This document shows positions 24,185-33,813 of a stretch of 64,000 nt of DNA, piece after piece (within the stretch, counting starts at the first letter, position 1; each line of letters begins with the position of its first letter). Source of the stretch: an uncultured Actinomycetes bacterium. Its GTDB lineage: Bacteria > Actinomycetota > Thermoleophilia > Gaiellales > JAICJC01. A program made the translations under genes and the position numbers. The stretch spans positions 192,287-256,286 of the forward strand of contig CAVSNF010000025.1 in assembly GCA_963729195.1 (NCBI GenBank), read 5' to 3'. The notes under the pieces are model-generated. The model was not told the origin of the DNA. It worked only from the letters and a program-made list of their open reading frames with translations, and did no database searches.

Positions 24185-24403
24185 TGCTCCAAAACCCTCC
24201 GAGTATTGTTTTGAGTAGCTGATCGGTGGGAAAAGCTACCTCGAAGATGTCATAAGCGCAAGTTTCAGTAGATCACATTAAACTATTCGCAACAAAGCAG
24301 GTTCAGCGTCATGGCTCTGACTGAACACGCCGCTCGGCGAGCAGCACGGAGTTCGTATGGGGAACGTGTCGCGCTAGCCGCGGTAGGGTTCGTCCATAAC
24401 CGT

Positions 24404-24491
24404 TTGCCGGGGAGTCCCACCGGGGCTGAGAGGGCGCACATGCGCCGACCCGCGAACCTGATCTGGGTAATGCCAGCGAAGGGATGCAGCG
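24404..24491 (+). promoter_or_regulatory. TPP (THI-box) riboswitch
   Basis: GGGGAGTCCCACCGGGGCTGAGAGGGCGCACATGCGCCGACCCGCGAACCTGATCTGGGTAATGCCAGCGAAGGGA matches the conserved CUGAGA...ACCUGAUCUGGnUAAUnCCAGCGnAGGGA core. It ends at the SD/ATG of the downstream gene. Confidence 0.9.
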
Positions 24492-25478
24492 ATGCCACAC
24501 CGTGTTCTCGTCCTCCTCCTCGTGGGACTCGCCGCGCTCGCGGCGGGCTGCGGAGGCTCCTCCAGCAGCTCAACCACAAACAACCTGAACCCGGGCCCTG
24601 CCAACGTCAAGCTGGCGCTCGACTGGTACCCCAACCCCGACCATGTCGGCATCTTTGCGGGCATCGAGCGCGGTGACTTCGCCGGACGCGGCATGCAGCT
24701 GACGCTGGTGGCGCCGTCGGATGTGTCTGACCCGATCAAGCTGGTGGCCGCCAAGCGGGTCGATCTGGGCGTGTCGTACGAGCCGGAGGTGTTCTTCGCC
24801 GCCGAGAAGCACATCCCGGTGGTCGCGGTGGCGGCCCTGGTGCCGACTGCGCTCAACTCGATCATCGCCCGGACCGACCGCGGCATCCACCAGATCACCG
24901 ACCTGCGCGGCAAGACGATCGGCGTGGACGGAAGCGCATCCACCACCGCCTACGTCAAGACGATGCTCCAGACGTCAGGCGTCCCGATCGACTCGGTGCA
25001 CCTGGTGACGGTGGGATTCAACCTGGTGCCGGCGCTGCTCTCGGGCAGGGTCGATGCGATCGCCGGCGGCTTCCAAAACATCGAGGGGATCGACATCCGC
25101 GCGCACGGGGTGGCGACCACCGTGTTTCCCGTCGACCACTACGGCGTGCCCAGCTACGACGAGCTGGTGATCATCGCCAATCGCGACCGGATGCAGTCAG
25201 ACGCCAATTATCGCGACGAGGTGCGGGCATTCGTGACCGGATTGACCACGGCCACCAGCTGGGCGCGAAATCATCCCGCCGCGGCGGTTGCGATCATGCG
25301 CAAACAGAGTTCTCGTGACTACCGCGGCCAGATCGCCAAAAGCGTGCCGGCGACCCTCAAGCTACTGCAGACCTCGCGGCTTGACCCGGCGGCCTGGAGG
25401 GCGTTTGGCACGTGGATGTGGAGCCACGGCCTGCTGGATGTGAAGCCCGACGGAGCGGCGCTCGTAACACAGCCATAA
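24492..25478 (+). CDS. NMT1/THI5-type ABC substrate-binding lipoprotein (ThiY-like, thiamine-precursor binding)
   Basis: ORF 24492..25478. Lipobox LAALAAGCGG. LALDWYPNPDHVGIF is typical of the NMT1/THI5 fold. Sits directly downstream of the TPP riboswitch. Confidence 0.8.
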   Translation: MPHRVLVLLLVGLAALAAGCGGSSSSSTTNNLNPGPANVKLALDWYPNPDHVGIFAGIERGDFAGRGMQLTLVAPSDVSDPIKLVAAKRVDLGVSYEPEVFFAAEKHIPVVAVAALVPTALNSIIARTDRGIHQITDLRGKTIGVDGSASTTAYVKTMLQTSGVPIDSVHLVTVGFNLVPALLSGRVDAIAGGFQNIEGIDIRAHGVATTVFPVDHYGVPSYDELVIIANRDRMQSDANYRDEVRAFVTGLTTATSWARNHPAAAVAIMRKQSSRDYRGQIAKSVPATLKLLQTSRLDPAAWRAFGTWMWSHGLLDVKPDGAALVTQP

Positions 25479-30943: not shown

Positions 30944-31017
30944 TCGGGGCGCCGAGATTTGAACTCGGGACCTCACCGACCCGAACGGTGCGCGCTACCA
31001 GGCTGCGCCACGCCCCG
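30944..31017 (-). tRNA. tRNA-Pro (anticodon CGG)
   Basis: Hand-folded cloverleaf: CGGGGCG-TG-GCGC-AGCCTGGTA-GCGC-G-CACCG-TTCGGGT-CGGTG-AGGTC-CCGAG-TTCAAAT-CTCGG-CGCCCCG-A. 74 nt, CCA not encoded. Confidence 0.9.
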
Positions 31018-31334: not shown

Positions 31335-31411
31335 GGGGCGACTATGAACGGCTGCGCGATCGGCGTCTAGGGGTGGCGGGCAGGTCCACCCGTTCGGGTA
31401 GGGTGGTTCGG

Positions 31412-32170
31412 ATGGCCGACCGCGACGCGATTGTCGCCTTTTTGGACTCCCACCTCGATGTCCACGCATACCCGGACTACCTGCCGGTGGGTCTGCAGGT
31501 GCCGGGTGCGAGCGAGGTCAGCCGGGTTGCCACCGGCGTCTCGTCCTCGCTCGAGCTGTTTCGCCGAGCCGGCGAGGCCGGCGCCCAGATGCTGATCGTC
31601 CACCACGGCCTCTTCTGGAACAGCGACCCGCGCCGGATCGGGCCGCGCCAGAAAGAACGGCTGCGGAGCCTCTTTGACAGCGACCTGTCGCTGGTCGCCT
31701 ACCACCTGGCGCTCGACGCCCACCCCCAGGACGGAAATAACGCGCTCATCTGCAACGCACTGGAACTCGGCGACCTGCACGGCTTCGGAGGCAGTGGCGA
31801 GCGCACCATCGGCTTCATCGGTACAGCAGAACCGTCGATCTCGCCCGACCGCCTGCTCGCCCGCGTGCGCGCGAACATCAACCCCGATCCGATCGCCTTC
31901 CTGCACGGCCCCGAGCGAATCCGCAGGGTCGCGGTCGTCTCCGGCGGCGCCGCCGACCTGGTCGACGAGGCCGCCGATGCCGGCGCCGACGCGTTCATCA
32001 CCGGGGAGCCGAACGAGCCCGCGATGGCCCGCGCGCAGGAGGCCGGGATCCACTTTGTCGCCGCCGGCCACTACGCCACCGAGGTGTTCGGGGTGAAGGC
32101 TCTGGGAGAGTTGGTGTCACGCCAATTTGGGGTCGAGCACCGCTTCATCGACATCCCCAACCGGGTCTAA
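31412..32170 (+). CDS. Nif3-like dinuclear metal centre protein (YbgI/GTP cyclohydrolase 1 type 2 family)
   Basis: Internal ATG 31412 of ORF 30698..32170: MADRDAIVAFLDSHLDV...MLIVHHGLFW...LVAYHLALDAH...AAGHYATE. Confidence 0.85.
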   Translation: MADRDAIVAFLDSHLDVHAYPDYLPVGLQVPGASEVSRVATGVSSSLELFRRAGEAGAQMLIVHHGLFWNSDPRRIGPRQKERLRSLFDSDLSLVAYHLALDAHPQDGNNALICNALELGDLHGFGGSGERTIGFIGTAEPSISPDRLLARVRANINPDPIAFLHGPERIRRVAVVSGGAADLVDEAADAGADAFITGEPNEPAMARAQEAGIHFVAAGHYATEVFGVKALGELVSRQFGVEHRFIDIPNRV

Positions 32171-32177
32171 GCCAATG

Positions 32178-32206
32178 TTGACGCCGTCCGCCCAAGTGGG
32201 TAGTCT
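32178..32206 (+). promoter_or_regulatory. Candidate sigma-70-type promoter
   Basis: TTGACG (32178..32183), 17 nt, TAGTCT (32201..32206), directly after the Nif3-like stop codon. Confidence 0.4.
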
Positions 32207-32212
32207 GTGAGC

Positions 32213-32310
32213 ATGATTACTGAAGCGGAGACGGCCTGACATTGGACGATTTCCGCTCACTGATGTCGGGAAGCTGAAGCCCACTGAGCAAGCGCTCGGT
32301 GGGTTTTTTC
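32213..32310 (+). ncRNA. Candidate ~95-nt leader RNA or small RNA ending in a canonical terminator
   Basis: Bounded by the promoter-like boxes and the terminator. Internal stem 32224..32231 / 32250..57. Repeated CTGAAGC and CACTGA motifs. No known RNA family recognised. Confidence 0.35.
32280..32309 (+). terminator. Canonical intrinsic terminator (10-bp stem, tetraloop, T6)
   Basis: CCCACTGAGC-AAGC-GCTCGGTGGG followed by TTTTTT. One G-U pair in the stem. Confidence 0.7.
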
Positions 32311-32333
32311 GTTCTCACACAGAAGGGAGAAGC

Positions 32334-32495
32334 ATGGCAAACCACCTGACGCCCGAAGAACTGTCCAAGGAGATGGGGATCAAGCGCGACGAGGTCATCC
32401 GGCTTTGTCACGAGCAGGCCGTCCCCATCTACCACGGCAAGATCGACAAGTTCCTGTTCTCCACCGTAGTCCAGGAGACGACCGTCTCGGGCTAG
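32334..32495 (+). CDS. Small (53 aa) helix-turn-helix-like protein (excisionase/BldC-like pattern); not in the ORF track
   Basis: My translation: MANHLTPEELSKEMGIKRDEVIRLCHEQAVPIYHGKIDKFLFSTVVQETTVSG. SD GGGAGA lies 5 nt upstream. Nearly all third codon positions are G/C. Confidence 0.6.
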   Translation: MANHLTPEELSKEMGIKRDEVIRLCHEQAVPIYHGKIDKFLFSTVVQETTVSG

Positions 32496-32555
32496 GCAGG
32501 GCCCAGCCGACGGTTCTCCCACGCGACGACCGCACCGTCGCGTAATCTGGAAAGT

Positions 32556-33813
32556 ATGCACCGCGCTGCAGTCGTAACGGTCGCCATGTTCCTGGCGGCC
32601 GCAGTCCCCCACGCCGGTGCAGCGACCCTCAACCAGACGATCAACGGCTGGATCGCGCACTCCGCCTTCTCGGGGGCGCGCACCACGCTTTTGGTGTACG
32701 ACCGAAACACCAACCGGTTCGTGGCCGCCCACAAGGCCAGCGTGGTCTTGAAGCCCGGCTCCAACATGAAGCTTCTGACCACGGCCACGGCGCTCTTTCG
32801 GTACGGCACCGCCACCCGCCTCAGCACCCAGGTGATGACCGGCGGGTCGCTCGTCAAACGGCACCCTGCACGGCAACCTGTGGCTGGTCGGCGGCGGCGA
32901 CCCGTCGTTCTCCACCGGCACCTTCTCGAGCAAAGCCTGGGGCGGATCCTCAGGCCGCACCGACCAGCTCGCCCAGGCGGTCAAGGCCGCCGGCATCACC
33001 AAGGTCACCGGCCGCATCATCGGCGACGAGAGCCGCTTTGACAGCCGCCGCACCGCGCCCTACTGGAAACCCGACTACTGGCGCGACTGTCCTCCCATCT
33101 CGGCGCTCTCGGTCAACATGGACCTGTGGACGTACGGCGCCCCCGAAGCCGCTCCCAACCCGGCGCTGCACGCCGCCCGGGTGTTTCGCACCTCCCTGAT
33201 CGGCGCCGGAGTCAAGGTCGCCGGCGGATCGGGCGCCGCCACCCGGCCCAGCACCGTGCACGTGGTGGCAACCGAGCAGTCGCCGACGATGGCGCGGCTG
33301 ATGCGCCAGATGGACCGAAACTCGGTCAACTACTACGCCGAGGTGCTGCTCAAAGACCTGGCCGTGCGCGGCGGGCGCAAGGGCACCACCGCAAACGGCG
33401 TGCACGCCGTTCGAAACGCGATCCACGACCTGGGCCTGAGCTTCAAGACCGCGCGGATCTACGACGGCTCGGGACTCTCCACCGGCGATCGCCTGTCGGC
33501 CGCACAGATCGTCGGTCTACTGCGAGCGATCTCGGCCAAGCCGTGGGCCGCCTCCTTCCGCGGGGCCCTGCCCCAGGCCGGCGTCAATGGCACCCTCAGA
33601 CACCGCATGCGCACCGGCAGAGCCCACCGAAACGTGGTCGCAAAGACCGGCACGCTCAACGACGCCTCGGCCCTGTCGGGCTACGTCAACGCCGCCAACG
33701 GGCATCGCATCCTGTTCTCGATGATCATGAACCGCCCCGCGATGAACGTGCTGGCGGCACACAAGCTGCAAGATCGCATCTGCCAGCTGCTGGCCAGCTC
33801 GCCCGCGGCCTGA
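32556..33813 (+). CDS. D-alanyl-D-alanine carboxypeptidase/endopeptidase (PBP4, peptidase S13), frame broken once
   Basis: Signal peptide plus KPGSNMKLLTTATAL (SxxK) in ORF 32556..33041. The rest is in frame with ORF 33118..33813 (...DGSGLSTGDRLSA...AKTGTLNDASALSGY). Frames join at the AAA run 32856..32858. Confidence 0.8.

What the first reader, a model, noticed from the sequence alone, without database searches (positions are those of the whole stretch)
32178..32495. Promoter, ~95-nt leader and strong canonical terminator immediately upstream of an unlisted 53-aa HTH-like ORF: candidate attenuator, riboswitch or sRNA
Directly after the Nif3-like stop come TTGACG-17 nt-TAGTCT promoter boxes. 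These are followed by a ~95-nt segment containing a stem (32224-31/32250-57). It ends in a textbook L-shaped terminator, CCCACTGAGC-AAGC-GCTCGGTGGG-TTTTTT (32280-32309), which is rare-looking in this GC-rich window.

Only 24 nt later a GGGAGA SD and ATG 32334 open a 53-aa ORF, MANHLTPEELSKEMGIKRDEVIRLCHEQAVPIYHGKIDKFLF... It has near-perfect G/C third positions and a pattern like HTH_17/excisionase/BldC-type proteins.

There is no room for a separate promoter, so the ORF must be expressed by terminator read-through. Segments resembling the terminator's left arm recur upstream (CTGAAGC at 32220 and 32274; CACTGA at 32258 and 32282). That arrangement is what an antiterminator/terminator switch would need. 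I recognised no known riboswitch class.
Basis: seen in the sequence. Interest (0 to 1): 0.6.

Follow-up and report, generated by a model that had tools for sequence, protein, structure and literature searches.

The report
Two-uORF leaderless attenuator before small HTH gene
The stretch is the 5' leader of a tiny DNA-binding-protein gene in soil Thermoleophilia: the RNA starts at an AUG, carries two back-to-back mini reading frames that end at the foot of a strong terminator, and probably lets the gene be transcribed only when a ribosome follows the polymerase closely.

Summary
Metatranscriptome contigs start exactly at 32213 and run through the terminator to about 32611.

32213 is the A of an ATG, so the RNA is leaderless for an 8-codon uORF1 (32213-32239). 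Its stop lies in a hairpin loop. Two bases later, TTG opens an 11-codon uORF2 (32242-32277), whose stop abuts the terminator base.

This layout is kept in about 90 Gaiellales/Thermoleophilia leaders of very different sequence:
- The start is ATG or GTG, and indels come in threes.
- The two uORFs join by stop/start overlap (NTGA, TGATG).
- The uORF2 stop interchanges TGA, TAA and TAG just before the stem.
- In one subgroup uORF2 runs through the terminator.

I found no antiterminator, Rfam family or riboswitch-like core.

Best reading (about 0.55): a ribosome-occlusion attenuator like E. coli pyrBI/pyrE. A ribosome loaded at the 5' end is passed from uORF1 to uORF2 and covers the terminator's 5' arm. 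Termination and translation themselves are not shown.

The product is a class-specific, BldC/RacA/Xis-like winged-helix protein. This is a new variant of a known kind.

The parts
32178..32183 (+). -35 hexamer TTGACG
   Evidence: Read directly. TTGAC/TTGC-type hexamers are kept 17-18 nt upstream of the -10 in relatives.
32184..32189 (+). Conserved CCGTCC motif just 3' of the -35; possible operator or promoter-specific element, function unknown
   Evidence: The consensus 'cCGTC' reaches at least 80% in 46 non-redundant promoters. It is also seen in class-level relatives that lack the leader. The promoter pattern is unique in the window's own genome.
32201..32206 (+). -10 hexamer TAGTCT
   Evidence: Read directly. 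TAnnnT is kept in all relatives, 6-9 nt upstream of the uORF1 start codon.
32213..32213 (+). Transcription start, which is the A of the uORF1 ATG (leaderless)
   Evidence: In X8 a contig (depth 49) has an Illumina adapter directly before 32213. Contigs in X27 and X46 begin exactly at 32213. The site lies 7 nt after the -10.
32213..32239 (+). uORF1, 8 codons (MITEAETA), stop TGA at 32237-39
   Evidence: A -10 box, then ATG/GTG, then a 7-12 codon ORF occurs in 91 of 97 distinct leaders, against 0 of 97 reverse complements and 1.2% of shuffles. Length classes are 8, 9, 10 and 11 codons, so indels come in threes. Stops are TGA 41, TAG 3, TAA 2.
32227..32230 (+). SD-like GGAG inside uORF1, 11 nt upstream of the uORF2 start
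   Evidence: An SD-like 4-mer lies 4-14 nt upstream of the uORF2 start in 38 of 43 non-redundant leaders, against 20% at control positions.
32216..32264 (+). Long hairpin P0/P1. The 5' strand is uORF1, the apical loop (32237-43) holds the uORF1 stop and the first bases of the uORF2 start, and the 3' strand is uORF2
   Evidence: Folds. The uORF1 stop falls in an apical loop in 37 of 46 non-redundant leaders, against 16% of all positions. Helix sequences differ between clades.
32242..32277 (+). uORF2, TTG start, 11 codons (MDDFRSLMSGS), stop TGA at 32275-77 abutting the terminator base
   Evidence: An NTG start lies within -1 to +5 of the uORF1 stop in 43 of 46 leaders, against 14.5%. The uORF2 frame ends 0-12 nt before the stem in 24 of 43, runs through it in 17 of 43 and stops early in 1 of 43. 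The other two frames give 4 of 86 abutting and 36 of 86 early. Stops are TGA 11, TAG 7, TAA 6.
32276..32309 (+). Intrinsic terminator: core stem 32280-89/32294-303, loop AAGC, U-run 32304-09
   Evidence: Scan and the RNAalifold consensus. All 46 non-redundant leaders have at least 4 T in the 8 nt after the stem. The median stem is 12 bp at -21 kcal/mol.
32325..32329 (+). Shine-Dalgarno GGGAG of the main gene
   Evidence: Read directly. GGAG/GGAGG is kept upstream of the main ATG in all relatives.
32334..32495 (+). 53-aa winged-HTH protein gene (BldC/RacA/Xis-like fold), restricted to Thermoleophilia
   Evidence: ORF and 1434 homologues. It occurs in 23 of 401 genomes of the phylum, all in the same class. 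The AF2 model has pLDDT 90.9. Foldseek top hits are RacA, BldC, Par and Xis.
32578..32611 (+). Hairpin in the 3' UTR (32578-32601) and the mRNA 3' end at about 32611, inside the start of the S13 peptidase gene
   Evidence: In X25 a contig ends at 32611 followed by adapter. Contigs in X6 and X8 end at 32612. Fold.

Best explanation
The region is the 5' leader of the small gene's own, apparently monocistronic mRNA (32213 to about 32611). It most likely works as a ribosome-occlusion (coupling) transcription attenuator built from two tandem micro-ORFs.

Proposed sequence of events:
1. Transcription starts at the A of an ATG, so a 70S ribosome can load on the 5' end as soon as it emerges.
2. The ribosome translates uORF1 (8 codons) and thereby unzips hairpin P0/P1.
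3. It terminates in the hairpin loop and re-initiates 2 nt further on at the TTG of uORF2. In relatives the junction is an overlapping NTGA or TGATG. The GGAG inside uORF1 serves as the Shine-Dalgarno.
4. It translates the 3' strand of the hairpin and reaches the uORF2 stop at the foot of the terminator. There its mRNA channel covers most of the terminator's 5' arm.
5. If this happens while RNA polymerase is still making the 3' arm and U-run, the hairpin cannot form and polymerase reads on into the HTH gene.
6. If no ribosome loads in time, or it lags, P0/P1 closes over the start region, the terminator forms and a ~97-nt RNA is released.

Shown here: the promoter and TSS, read-through mRNA, and conservation of both uORFs, of their junction, of the stop-to-terminator distance and of the U-run.

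Inferred: that the uORFs are translated, that the hairpin terminates in vivo, that the ribosome blocks it, and what physiological signal is read. Free-ribosome supply or translation rate is the obvious candidate, because the peptides are not conserved.
For: RNA evidence:
- The RNA 5' end lies exactly at the ATG.
- Contigs from 22 metatranscriptome runs cross the terminator, and almost none covers Nif3.

uORF1 is conserved as an ORF, not as a peptide:
- It is found in 91 of 97 leaders, against 0 of 97 reverse complements.
- Starts interchange between ATG and GTG, stops between TGA, TAG and TAA, and lengths are 8-11 codons.

uORF2:
- An NTG start lies next to or overlapping the uORF1 stop in 43 of 46 leaders, against 14.5% at control positions.
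- An SD-like 4-mer lies upstream in 38 of 43, against 20%.
- Only 1 of 43 has an early stop, against 36 of 86 in the other two frames.
- The stop abuts the stem in 24 of 43, against 4 of 86, and all three stop codons are used.
- The median distance from the first base of the stop to the first G/C pair is 3.5 nt, and the left arm ends 15 nt after it. That fits a ribosome footprint.

Gaiellaceae subgroup: uORF2 (38-47 codons) runs through the terminator. Leader lengths of 131-158 nt are all 2 mod 3.

Outgroup families: a single leaderless uORF of 11-27 codons ends 0-4 nt before the terminator.

Terminator: the U-run is kept in 46 of 46 leaders.

No alternative structure exists that could do the job instead.

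NUGA/URRUG termination-reinitiation and leaderless uORFs are established in Actinobacteria (10.1101/2022.06.01.494293; PMC4633059; 10.1101/834739).
Against: - No terminated ~97-nt RNA and no 3' end at 32304-10 was seen. Contigs of standard libraries would lose such a short RNA. In X27 the contig depth is equal on both sides of the terminator, 49.8 against 50.
- There are no ribosome-profiling or proteomic data for the uORFs.
- Whether transcription and translation are coupled in Actinobacteria is unsettled (10.1101/2022.06.01.494293, discussion).
- In 17 of 43 leaders the uORF2 frame simply stays open through the terminator, which 51% of other frames also do in this GC-rich DNA.
- Two leaders break the uORF1 frame (L097, L086).
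- P0/P1 is only moderately more stable than shuffles, with mean z -1.0.
- The window's own uORF2 uses TTG with an 11-nt SD spacing, which is not optimal.
- One depth-2 contig (X34) starts upstream, at 32170.
Confidence: 0.55

Rival explanations
1. The element is a constitutive, leaky terminator or 5'-UTR hairpin. The hairpin and U-run set a fixed ratio of short to long RNA, or mainly stabilise the mRNA. The uORFs are translated but serve only to protect the 5' end or to tune translation, and the ribosome has no control over termination.
For: Read-through transcripts are abundant in every metatranscriptome examined, and contig depth is equal on both sides of the terminator in X27. No antiterminator exists.
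Against: This does not explain why the uORF2 stop is held 0-12 nt from the stem in 24 of 43 leaders, against 4 of 86 in other frames. It also does not explain why the frame is otherwise kept open through the stem, with early stops in 1 of 43 against 36 of 86. Nor does it explain why single-uORF outgroups also end at the stem. A plain stabiliser needs no conserved U-run, yet the U-run is kept in 46 of 46.
Confidence: 0.22
2. The element is an independent small RNA, or a dual-function sRNA or micro-peptide gene of ~97 nt with its own promoter and terminator. Expression of the HTH gene by read-through is incidental.
For: The unit from promoter to terminator is complete and unique in the genome. 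The leader is structured (z -3.8).
Against: The unit is always placed 15-60 nt upstream of the same gene, with no room for another promoter. RNA contigs are continuous from 32213 into the ORF. The peptides are not conserved, and the RNA sequence outside start and stop codons and the terminator base is not conserved. Families f8 and f10 keep the gene but have no such RNA.
Confidence: 0.08
3. The element is a classical alternative-structure switch, either a riboswitch or a trp-type attenuator. In it an antiterminator competes with the terminator and is selected by a ligand or by stalling at particular codons.
For: The general layout is promoter, structured leader, terminator, gene.
Against: No Rfam family reaches threshold; the best hit is ctRNA_pGA1 at 18 bits against a cutoff of 45. 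Complementarity of the leader to the terminator's 5' arm is not above shuffles (mean z +0.57, none below -1.64 among 87 leaders). The probability that the terminator is formed is 0.7-1.0 under every masking tested. No amino acid is enriched in the peptides. P1 sequence and length vary freely.
Confidence: 0.05
4. The hairpin is simply the terminator of the upstream Nif3 gene, and the small ORF is unexpressed.
For: The hairpin lies 110 nt after the Nif3 stop.
Against: A promoter and a mapped RNA 5' end lie between Nif3 and the hairpin. The same leader follows unrelated upstream genes in other genomes. The ORF is transcribed and strongly conserved.
Confidence: 0.01

Closest known systems
E. coli pyrBI (pyrL leader) and rph-pyrE coupling attenuators
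   Same: An upstream ORF ends just before, or runs through, an intrinsic terminator. No antiterminator helix is needed: a ribosome that closely follows the polymerase physically prevents the hairpin. Moving the stop upstream (rph-1) raises termination.
   Different: Here the mRNA is leaderless. Two micro-ORFs are chained by termination-reinitiation inside a hairpin loop. No U-rich, UTP-sensitive pause region is evident. The regulated gene is a small DNA-binding protein, not a pyrimidine gene. The host is a Thermoleophilia actinobacterium.
Mycobacterial leaderless poly-Cys short-ORF attenuators, the 'Cys ribulon' (10.1101/834739)
   Same: An actinobacterial leaderless 5'-AUG micro-ORF serves as the sensory element that controls the downstream gene through ribosome position.
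   Different: Those ORFs sense cysteine through Cys codons and act on translation by unmasking an RBS. Here there are no enriched codons, the RNA element is an intrinsic terminator with a U-run, and a second coupled uORF is present.
Classical leader-peptide attenuators: trp, his and ilv, including Corynebacterium ilvB (PMC10272879, PMC11857589)
   Same: The order is promoter, short ORF, terminator, structural gene, and the mechanism is ribosome-dependent.
   Different: Those need regulatory codons and a 2:3 antiterminator. Both were tested here and not found.
NUGA/URRUG termination-reinitiation units and translated uORFs linked to conditional termination in M. tuberculosis (10.1101/2022.06.01.494293)
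   Same: Stop/start overlaps (NTGA in 26 and TGATG in 4 of 43 non-redundant leaders) hand ribosomes from one ORF to the next. Tight coupling is proposed there to suppress premature termination.
   Different: There the termination is mainly Rho-dependent and the ORFs are mostly full-length genes. Here the pair of ORFs is only 8-12 codons each and is aimed at a canonical intrinsic terminator.
BldC (Streptomyces), RacA (Bacillus), Xis/excisionase and the pSK1 Par DNA-binding domain, compared with the protein product
   Same: Small winged helix-turn-helix of MerR/excisionase type. Foldseek gives probability 0.8-0.92 and TM 0.60-0.66. The secondary structure is beta-H-H-beta-beta-H.
   Different: Sequence identity is only 14-19%. 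The Pfam HTH_17 score is 15 bits against a cutoff of 27. The protein has an invariant N-terminus, MANHLTPEE, and a PIYHGKIDK wing, and is confined to Thermoleophilia. DNA binding is not shown.

Membership tests
Leaderless mRNA | The RNA 5' end coincides with the start codon, or lies within 5 nt of it | tested here: met
   The adapter junction and contig starts lie at 32213, the A of the ATG. The start codon sits 6-9 nt after the -10 in 91 of 97 relatives.
Ribosome-mediated transcription attenuator (general) | A short ORF lies between the promoter and an intrinsic terminator that precedes the regulated gene | tested here: met
Ribosome-mediated transcription attenuator (general) | The uORF is actually translated, and termination responds to it | not testable with these tools
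   Only conservation of start, stop and frame supports this. No Ribo-seq or Term-seq data exist for these uncultured organisms.
Classical trp-type leader-peptide attenuator | An alternative antiterminator helix pairs with the terminator's 5' arm | tested here: not met
   Duplex energies are no better than shuffles (mean z +0.57). The terminator probability does not change under masking.
Classical trp-type leader-peptide attenuator | A run of regulatory codons for the sensed amino acid | tested here: not met
   The peptides are variable and no residue is enriched.
pyrBI/pyrE-type coupling attenuator | The leader ORF ends next to, or runs through, the terminator hairpin, so that a ribosome can occlude it | tested here: met
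   The stop lies 0-12 nt before the stem in 24 of 43 leaders and the frame runs through it in 17 of 43. The window's own stop, 32275-77, overlaps the stem base at 32276.
pyrBI/pyrE-type coupling attenuator | An NTP-sensitive pause region upstream of the terminator, and control of a pyrimidine gene | tested here: not met
   There is no U-rich tract before the stem, and the regulated gene is a wHTH protein. The element therefore works like this family but is not a member.
Riboswitch or other known cis-regulatory RNA family | A match to a curated covariance model, or a conserved ligand-binding core | tested here: not met
   Rfam 15 gives nothing above threshold in 31900-32800 or in the whole window, apart from TPP and a tRNA elsewhere. 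P1 sequence is not conserved across clades.
Intrinsic (Rho-independent) terminator | A GC-rich stem-loop directly followed by a U-run | tested here: met
   The core is 10-bp with a 4-nt loop and T6. This is kept in 46 of 46 non-redundant leaders. Termination activity itself was not measured.
Pfam HTH_17 / excisionase (TIGR01764) protein family | A sequence score at or above the curated cutoff | tested here: not met
   HTH_17 scores 15.1 bits against 27. TIGR01764 scores 12.6 against 28.8.
MerR/excisionase-type winged HTH fold (BldC, RacA, Xis) | Three-dimensional similarity to solved members | tested here: inconclusive
   The AF2 model has pLDDT 90.9. Foldseek top hits are RacA, BldC, Par and Xis with probability 0.8-0.92 and TM 0.60-0.66, but E-values are 0.2-1 because the protein is so short.

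The most novel reading that the evidence does not exclude
The leader is a 'ribosome relay' attenuator with no antiterminator. A 70S ribosome that loads on the 5'-terminal AUG of the nascent RNA is handed, by termination-reinitiation in a hairpin loop, to a second micro-ORF that parks it on the 5' arm of an intrinsic terminator. Transcription of a very highly expressed, class-specific BldC-like DNA-binding protein would then become a direct read-out of free-ribosome supply and of transcription-translation coupling throughout the Thermoleophilia. Together with similar single-uORF designs noted elsewhere in this scan (unchecked), it would point to a widespread, undescribed class of leaderless occlusion attenuators.
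Probability: 0.4. Interest if true: 0.72.

Novelty: new variant of a known kind. Interest (0 to 1): 0.6.

Why it matters
If the mechanism holds, three things follow.

First, it gives a compact and testable example of transcription-translation coupling used as a regulatory signal in Actinobacteria, where it is still debated whether such coupling exists.

Second, it shows that leaderless initiation and NUGA-type reinitiation can be combined into a terminator-blocking device that needs no alternative RNA fold. Structure-based attenuator and riboswitch finders would therefore miss it.

Third, it flags an unstudied 53-aa winged-helix protein, confined to Thermoleophilia and abundant in soil and rhizosphere metatranscriptomes, as a likely growth-state regulator or nucleoid protein in one of the commonest uncultured soil lineages.

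Tried and rejected
- **Rfam scans.** I scanned the region at E up to 10 and the whole window at gathering thresholds. The only hit was a sub-threshold ctRNA_pGA1 match that merely reflects the terminator.
- **Antiterminator search.** RNAduplex of the post-stop leader against the terminator's 5' arm, compared with shuffles, and partition-function folding with ribosome-like masks were both negative.
- **P1 covariation by RNAalifold.** On a 25-sequence family alignment only the terminator was recovered, because P1 shifts register by bulges between subclades. I used per-sequence folds and loop-position statistics instead.
- **Other copies in the genome.** A covariance model of the leader searched against the window's own genome found only this locus. 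It is therefore not a multi-copy regulon element.
- **Promoter motif search.** TTGACNNCRTCC...TANNNT matches only this site in the own genome. This gives no evidence for a regulon.
- **N-terminal extension of the main ORF.** The main frame is open back to 32217, but it has no ATG/GTG/TTG and long open frames are common in this GC-rich DNA. Rejected.
- **PDB sequence search with the protein profile** gave nothing significant.
- **Short terminated RNA or a 3' end at the U-run.** I looked in 22 RNA runs and saw none. The data are assembled contigs, so this is uninformative rather than negative.
- **The pyrimidine-attenuation review** could not be fetched, and two papers mentioning rph-pyrE gave no mechanistic passage. 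The pyrBI/pyrE comparison therefore rests on my own knowledge.
Full report
**1. The observation**

- The Nif3/DUF34 gene (PF01784, E 4e-59) stops at 32168-70.
- TTGACG (32178-83), a 17-nt spacer and TAGTCT (32201-06) follow.
- A canonical terminator, CCCACTGAGC-AAGC-GCTCGGTGGG-TTTTTT, occupies 32280-32309. The pattern scan extends the stem to 14 pairs, 32276-32307.
- GGGAG (32325-29) and ATG 32334 open a 53-codon ORF that ends at 32495.
- The leader folds markedly better than shuffles (-53.3 kcal/mol, z -3.8).

**2. The organism and the gene**

The ORF has 1434 homologues in the protein collection, almost all 53-57 aa, and the few that carry names are labelled Gaiellales. A genome-contig scan confirmed 432 loci, named Gaiellales, Gaiellaceae or Thermoleophilia MAGs.

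In a sample of 401 genomes of the phylum, the protein occurs in 23, all of the same class.

The 42-residue core is nearly invariant: MANHLTPEELSKExGxKREEVIRLCHExxVPIYHGKIDKxLF.

Pfam and NCBIfam give only sub-threshold HTH_17 and excisionase matches. AlphaFold2 gives a confident beta-helix-helix-beta-beta-helix model (pLDDT 90.9). Its best PDB neighbours are RacA, BldC, pSK1 Par and Xis proteins, with probability 0.8-0.92, TM 0.60-0.66 and E 0.2-1.

**3. RNA evidence**

Public soil, rhizosphere and plant metatranscriptomes hold this locus.
- In run X8, a 424-nt contig of depth 49 covers 32213-32612 and is preceded by 24 nt of Illumina adapter that ends directly at 32213.
- In X27 and X46, contigs begin exactly at 32213.
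- In X25, a contig ends at 32611 and runs into adapter.
- No RNA contig covers Nif3, except one depth-2 contig in X34 that starts at 32170.
- In all 22 runs examined, contigs that reach the leader cross the terminator.

Three conclusions follow. The promoter is real. The transcript starts 7 nt after the -10. The small gene is expressed by read-through, as a ~400-nt mRNA.

Illumina contigs show no indels against the window in 32213-32612.

Contigs cannot show a short terminated RNA. Depth is equal on the two sides of the terminator in X27, 49.8 against 50.

**4.

32213 is the A of an ATG. The RNA is thus leaderless for uORF1: ATG ATT ACT GAA GCG GAG ACG GCC TGA (32213-32239).

Among 97 distinct upstream regions from relatives, 91 have a TAnnnT box followed 5-9 nt later by ATG or GTG opening a 7-12 codon ORF. 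The same test finds 0 of 97 reverse complements and 1.2% of shuffles.

The peptide is not conserved (MITEAETA, MDVCEERA, MDLRRERA, MSYSATGRGA and others), but the ORF is:
- Starts interchange between ATG and GTG.
- Stops interchange between TGA, TAG and TAA (41, 3 and 2 in 46 non-redundant leaders).
- Clades differ by whole codons (8, 9, 10 and 11).

In 37 of 46 non-redundant leaders the stop lies in the apical loop of a hairpin, against 16% for positions in general. The helix sequence differs completely between clades.

Directly after that stop comes a second start. In the window it is TTG 32242, 2 nt after the TGA. In relatives it is ATG, GTG or TTG at +3 to +5, or overlapping as GTGA/TTGA (26 of 43) or TGATG (4 of 43).
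- It is present in 43 of 46 leaders, against 14.5% at control positions.
- An SD-like 4-mer lies 4-14 nt upstream, inside uORF1, in 38 of 43, against 20% at control positions.

The frame it opens is uORF2, 32242-32277 (MDDFRSLMSGS*). It has an early stop in only 1 of 43 leaders, against 36 of 86 for the other two frames. It ends 0-12 nt before the first paired base of the terminator in 24 of 43, against 4 of 86. Those stops use TGA, TAG and TAA 11, 7 and 6 times. The first base of the stop is a median 3.5 nt from the first G/C pair, and the 5' arm ends a median 15 nt after it.

In a Gaiellaceae subgroup, uORF2 (38-47 codons) runs through the terminator, the SD and the main ATG. It ends at the TGA formed by the invariant His-Leu-Thr codons (CAC CTG ACG). 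The leaders there are 131, 134, 137, 140, 143 and 158 nt long, all 2 mod 3.

In outgroup families of the class, two layouts occur (read by eye):
- A single leaderless uORF of 11-27 codons ends 0-4 nt before the terminator (L122, L125, L133).
- A coupled second uORF ends 6 nt before the terminator (L116) or at a TGATG with the main start (L119).

Families f8 and f10 keep the gene, but with a plain promoter and a short 5' UTR.

**5. No alternative fold**

- Rfam finds nothing.
- Complementarity between the leader and the terminator's 5' arm is not above shuffles (mean z +0.57, none of 87 below -1.64).
- With any part of the leader masked, the terminator stays formed, with pair probability 0.7-1.0.
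- RNAalifold on the family alignment recovers only the terminator. Its base (CCCAC/GTGGG) is invariant within the family and its top varies with compensation.
- All 46 non-redundant leaders keep at least 4 T in the 8 nt after the stem. That argues for termination rather than a mere structural hairpin.
- A covariance model of the leader finds only this locus in the genome.

**6. Mechanism**

The simplest reading of this anatomy is ribosome occlusion.
1. A 70S ribosome loads on the 5'-terminal AUG while the RNA is being made.
2. It unzips P0/P1 as it reads uORF1.
3. It terminates in the loop and re-initiates on uORF2.
4. It arrives at the foot of the terminator, or passes through it.
5. With the stop codon in its A site, the ribosome covers about 12 nt downstream (my own knowledge of footprint geometry). 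That is most of the 10-12-nt 5' arm.
6. Read-through follows if this happens before the polymerase has finished the U-run.

Without a ribosome, P0/P1 buries the region next to the AUG, the SD and the start of uORF2. The terminator then forms.

Because the peptides vary, the likely signal is general: ribosome availability or speed, meaning how tightly translation is coupled to transcription.

Translation of the uORFs, termination in vivo and the dependence of one on the other are all inferred.

**7. Comparison with known systems**

In function, the design is closest to the E. coli pyrBI and rph-pyrE attenuators (my own knowledge). There a leader ORF ending at, or running through, the terminator lets a closely following ribosome block the hairpin.

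It is not a member of that family. There is no NTP-sensitive pause tract and no pyrimidine gene.

Leaderless sensory micro-ORFs are known in mycobacteria, but those act on translation through Cys codons (10.1101/834739). NUGA/URRUG reinitiation and uORF-linked conditional termination are documented in M. tuberculosis, mostly Rho-dependent (10.1101/2022.06.01.494293).

I found no paper on Gaiellales leaders.

Earlier notes of this scan (e1-1346288, e1-5066198) describe single leaderless uORFs running into terminators in other phyla. They are unchecked and are not evidence here, but they suggest the principle may be widespread.

**8. Verdict**

The element is a new variant of ribosome-mediated attenuation, conserved across an under-studied class and supported by a mapped RNA 5' end, but it has no functional test. 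Interest is 0.6.

Noticed in passing
window 32184-32189, and the same position in L001-L133: A CCGTC(C/A) motif directly 3' of the -35 is kept in nearly all promoters of this gene. This includes class-level families that lack the uORF/terminator leader (TTGAGCCCGTCC, TTGACACGTC). The full promoter pattern occurs only once in the window's own genome. It may be an operator, perhaps for autoregulation, or a promoter-specific element.
   Followed up: partly
window 32578-32612: The small gene's mRNA has a sharp 3' end at about 32611. An adapter junction marks it in X25, and contigs in X6 and X8 end at 32612. The end lies 10 nt after a 9-bp GC hairpin with no U-run, inside the first codons of the downstream S13 peptidase gene (ATG 32556).
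   Followed up: partly
window 32556-33813: The D-Ala-D-Ala carboxypeptidase (Peptidase_S13) is split into two ORFs, 32556-33041 and 33118-33813. The cause is probably the single-base assembly errors already noted for this window, not a pseudogene.
   Followed up: no
window 32266-32271 (GGGAAG) and the equivalent in relatives: A second SD-like purine motif (GAGG, GGAG, GGGA) lies 4-18 nt upstream of the terminator, inside uORF2, in 31 of 46 non-redundant leaders. It might hold the ribosome at the uORF2 stop. This is unexplained.
   Followed up: partly
L056, L064, L065, L072, L075, L084, L090, L096, L105-L107: In a Gaiellaceae subgroup uORF2 is 38-47 codons long and runs through the terminator and the main start codon. 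It stops at a TGA created by the invariant His-Leu-Thr codons of the main gene. Leader lengths all keep the same frame.
   Followed up: yes
window 32420-32459: The conserved core of the small gene collects contigs from many related organisms in metatranscriptomes, with summed depth up to about 815 in X27. Flanking genes are not seen. The gene family appears to be among the highly transcribed genes of soil Gaiellales.
   Followed up: partly
L123, L128, L130, L131, L132 and window 31400-32170: The Nif3/DUF34 gene lies directly upstream of the small HTH gene in distant families of the class too, including those without the leader. The two genes are syntenic class-wide but are transcribed separately here.
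   Followed up: no
window 24398-24502 and 30944-31017: A TPP riboswitch (66 bits) on the + strand and a tRNA on the - strand are the only Rfam gathering-level hits in the window.
   Followed up: no
window 32170-32445 (run X34): One depth-2 RNA contig starts at 32170, upstream of the mapped TSS. It could be weak read-through from Nif3 or DNA carry-over.
   Followed up: no
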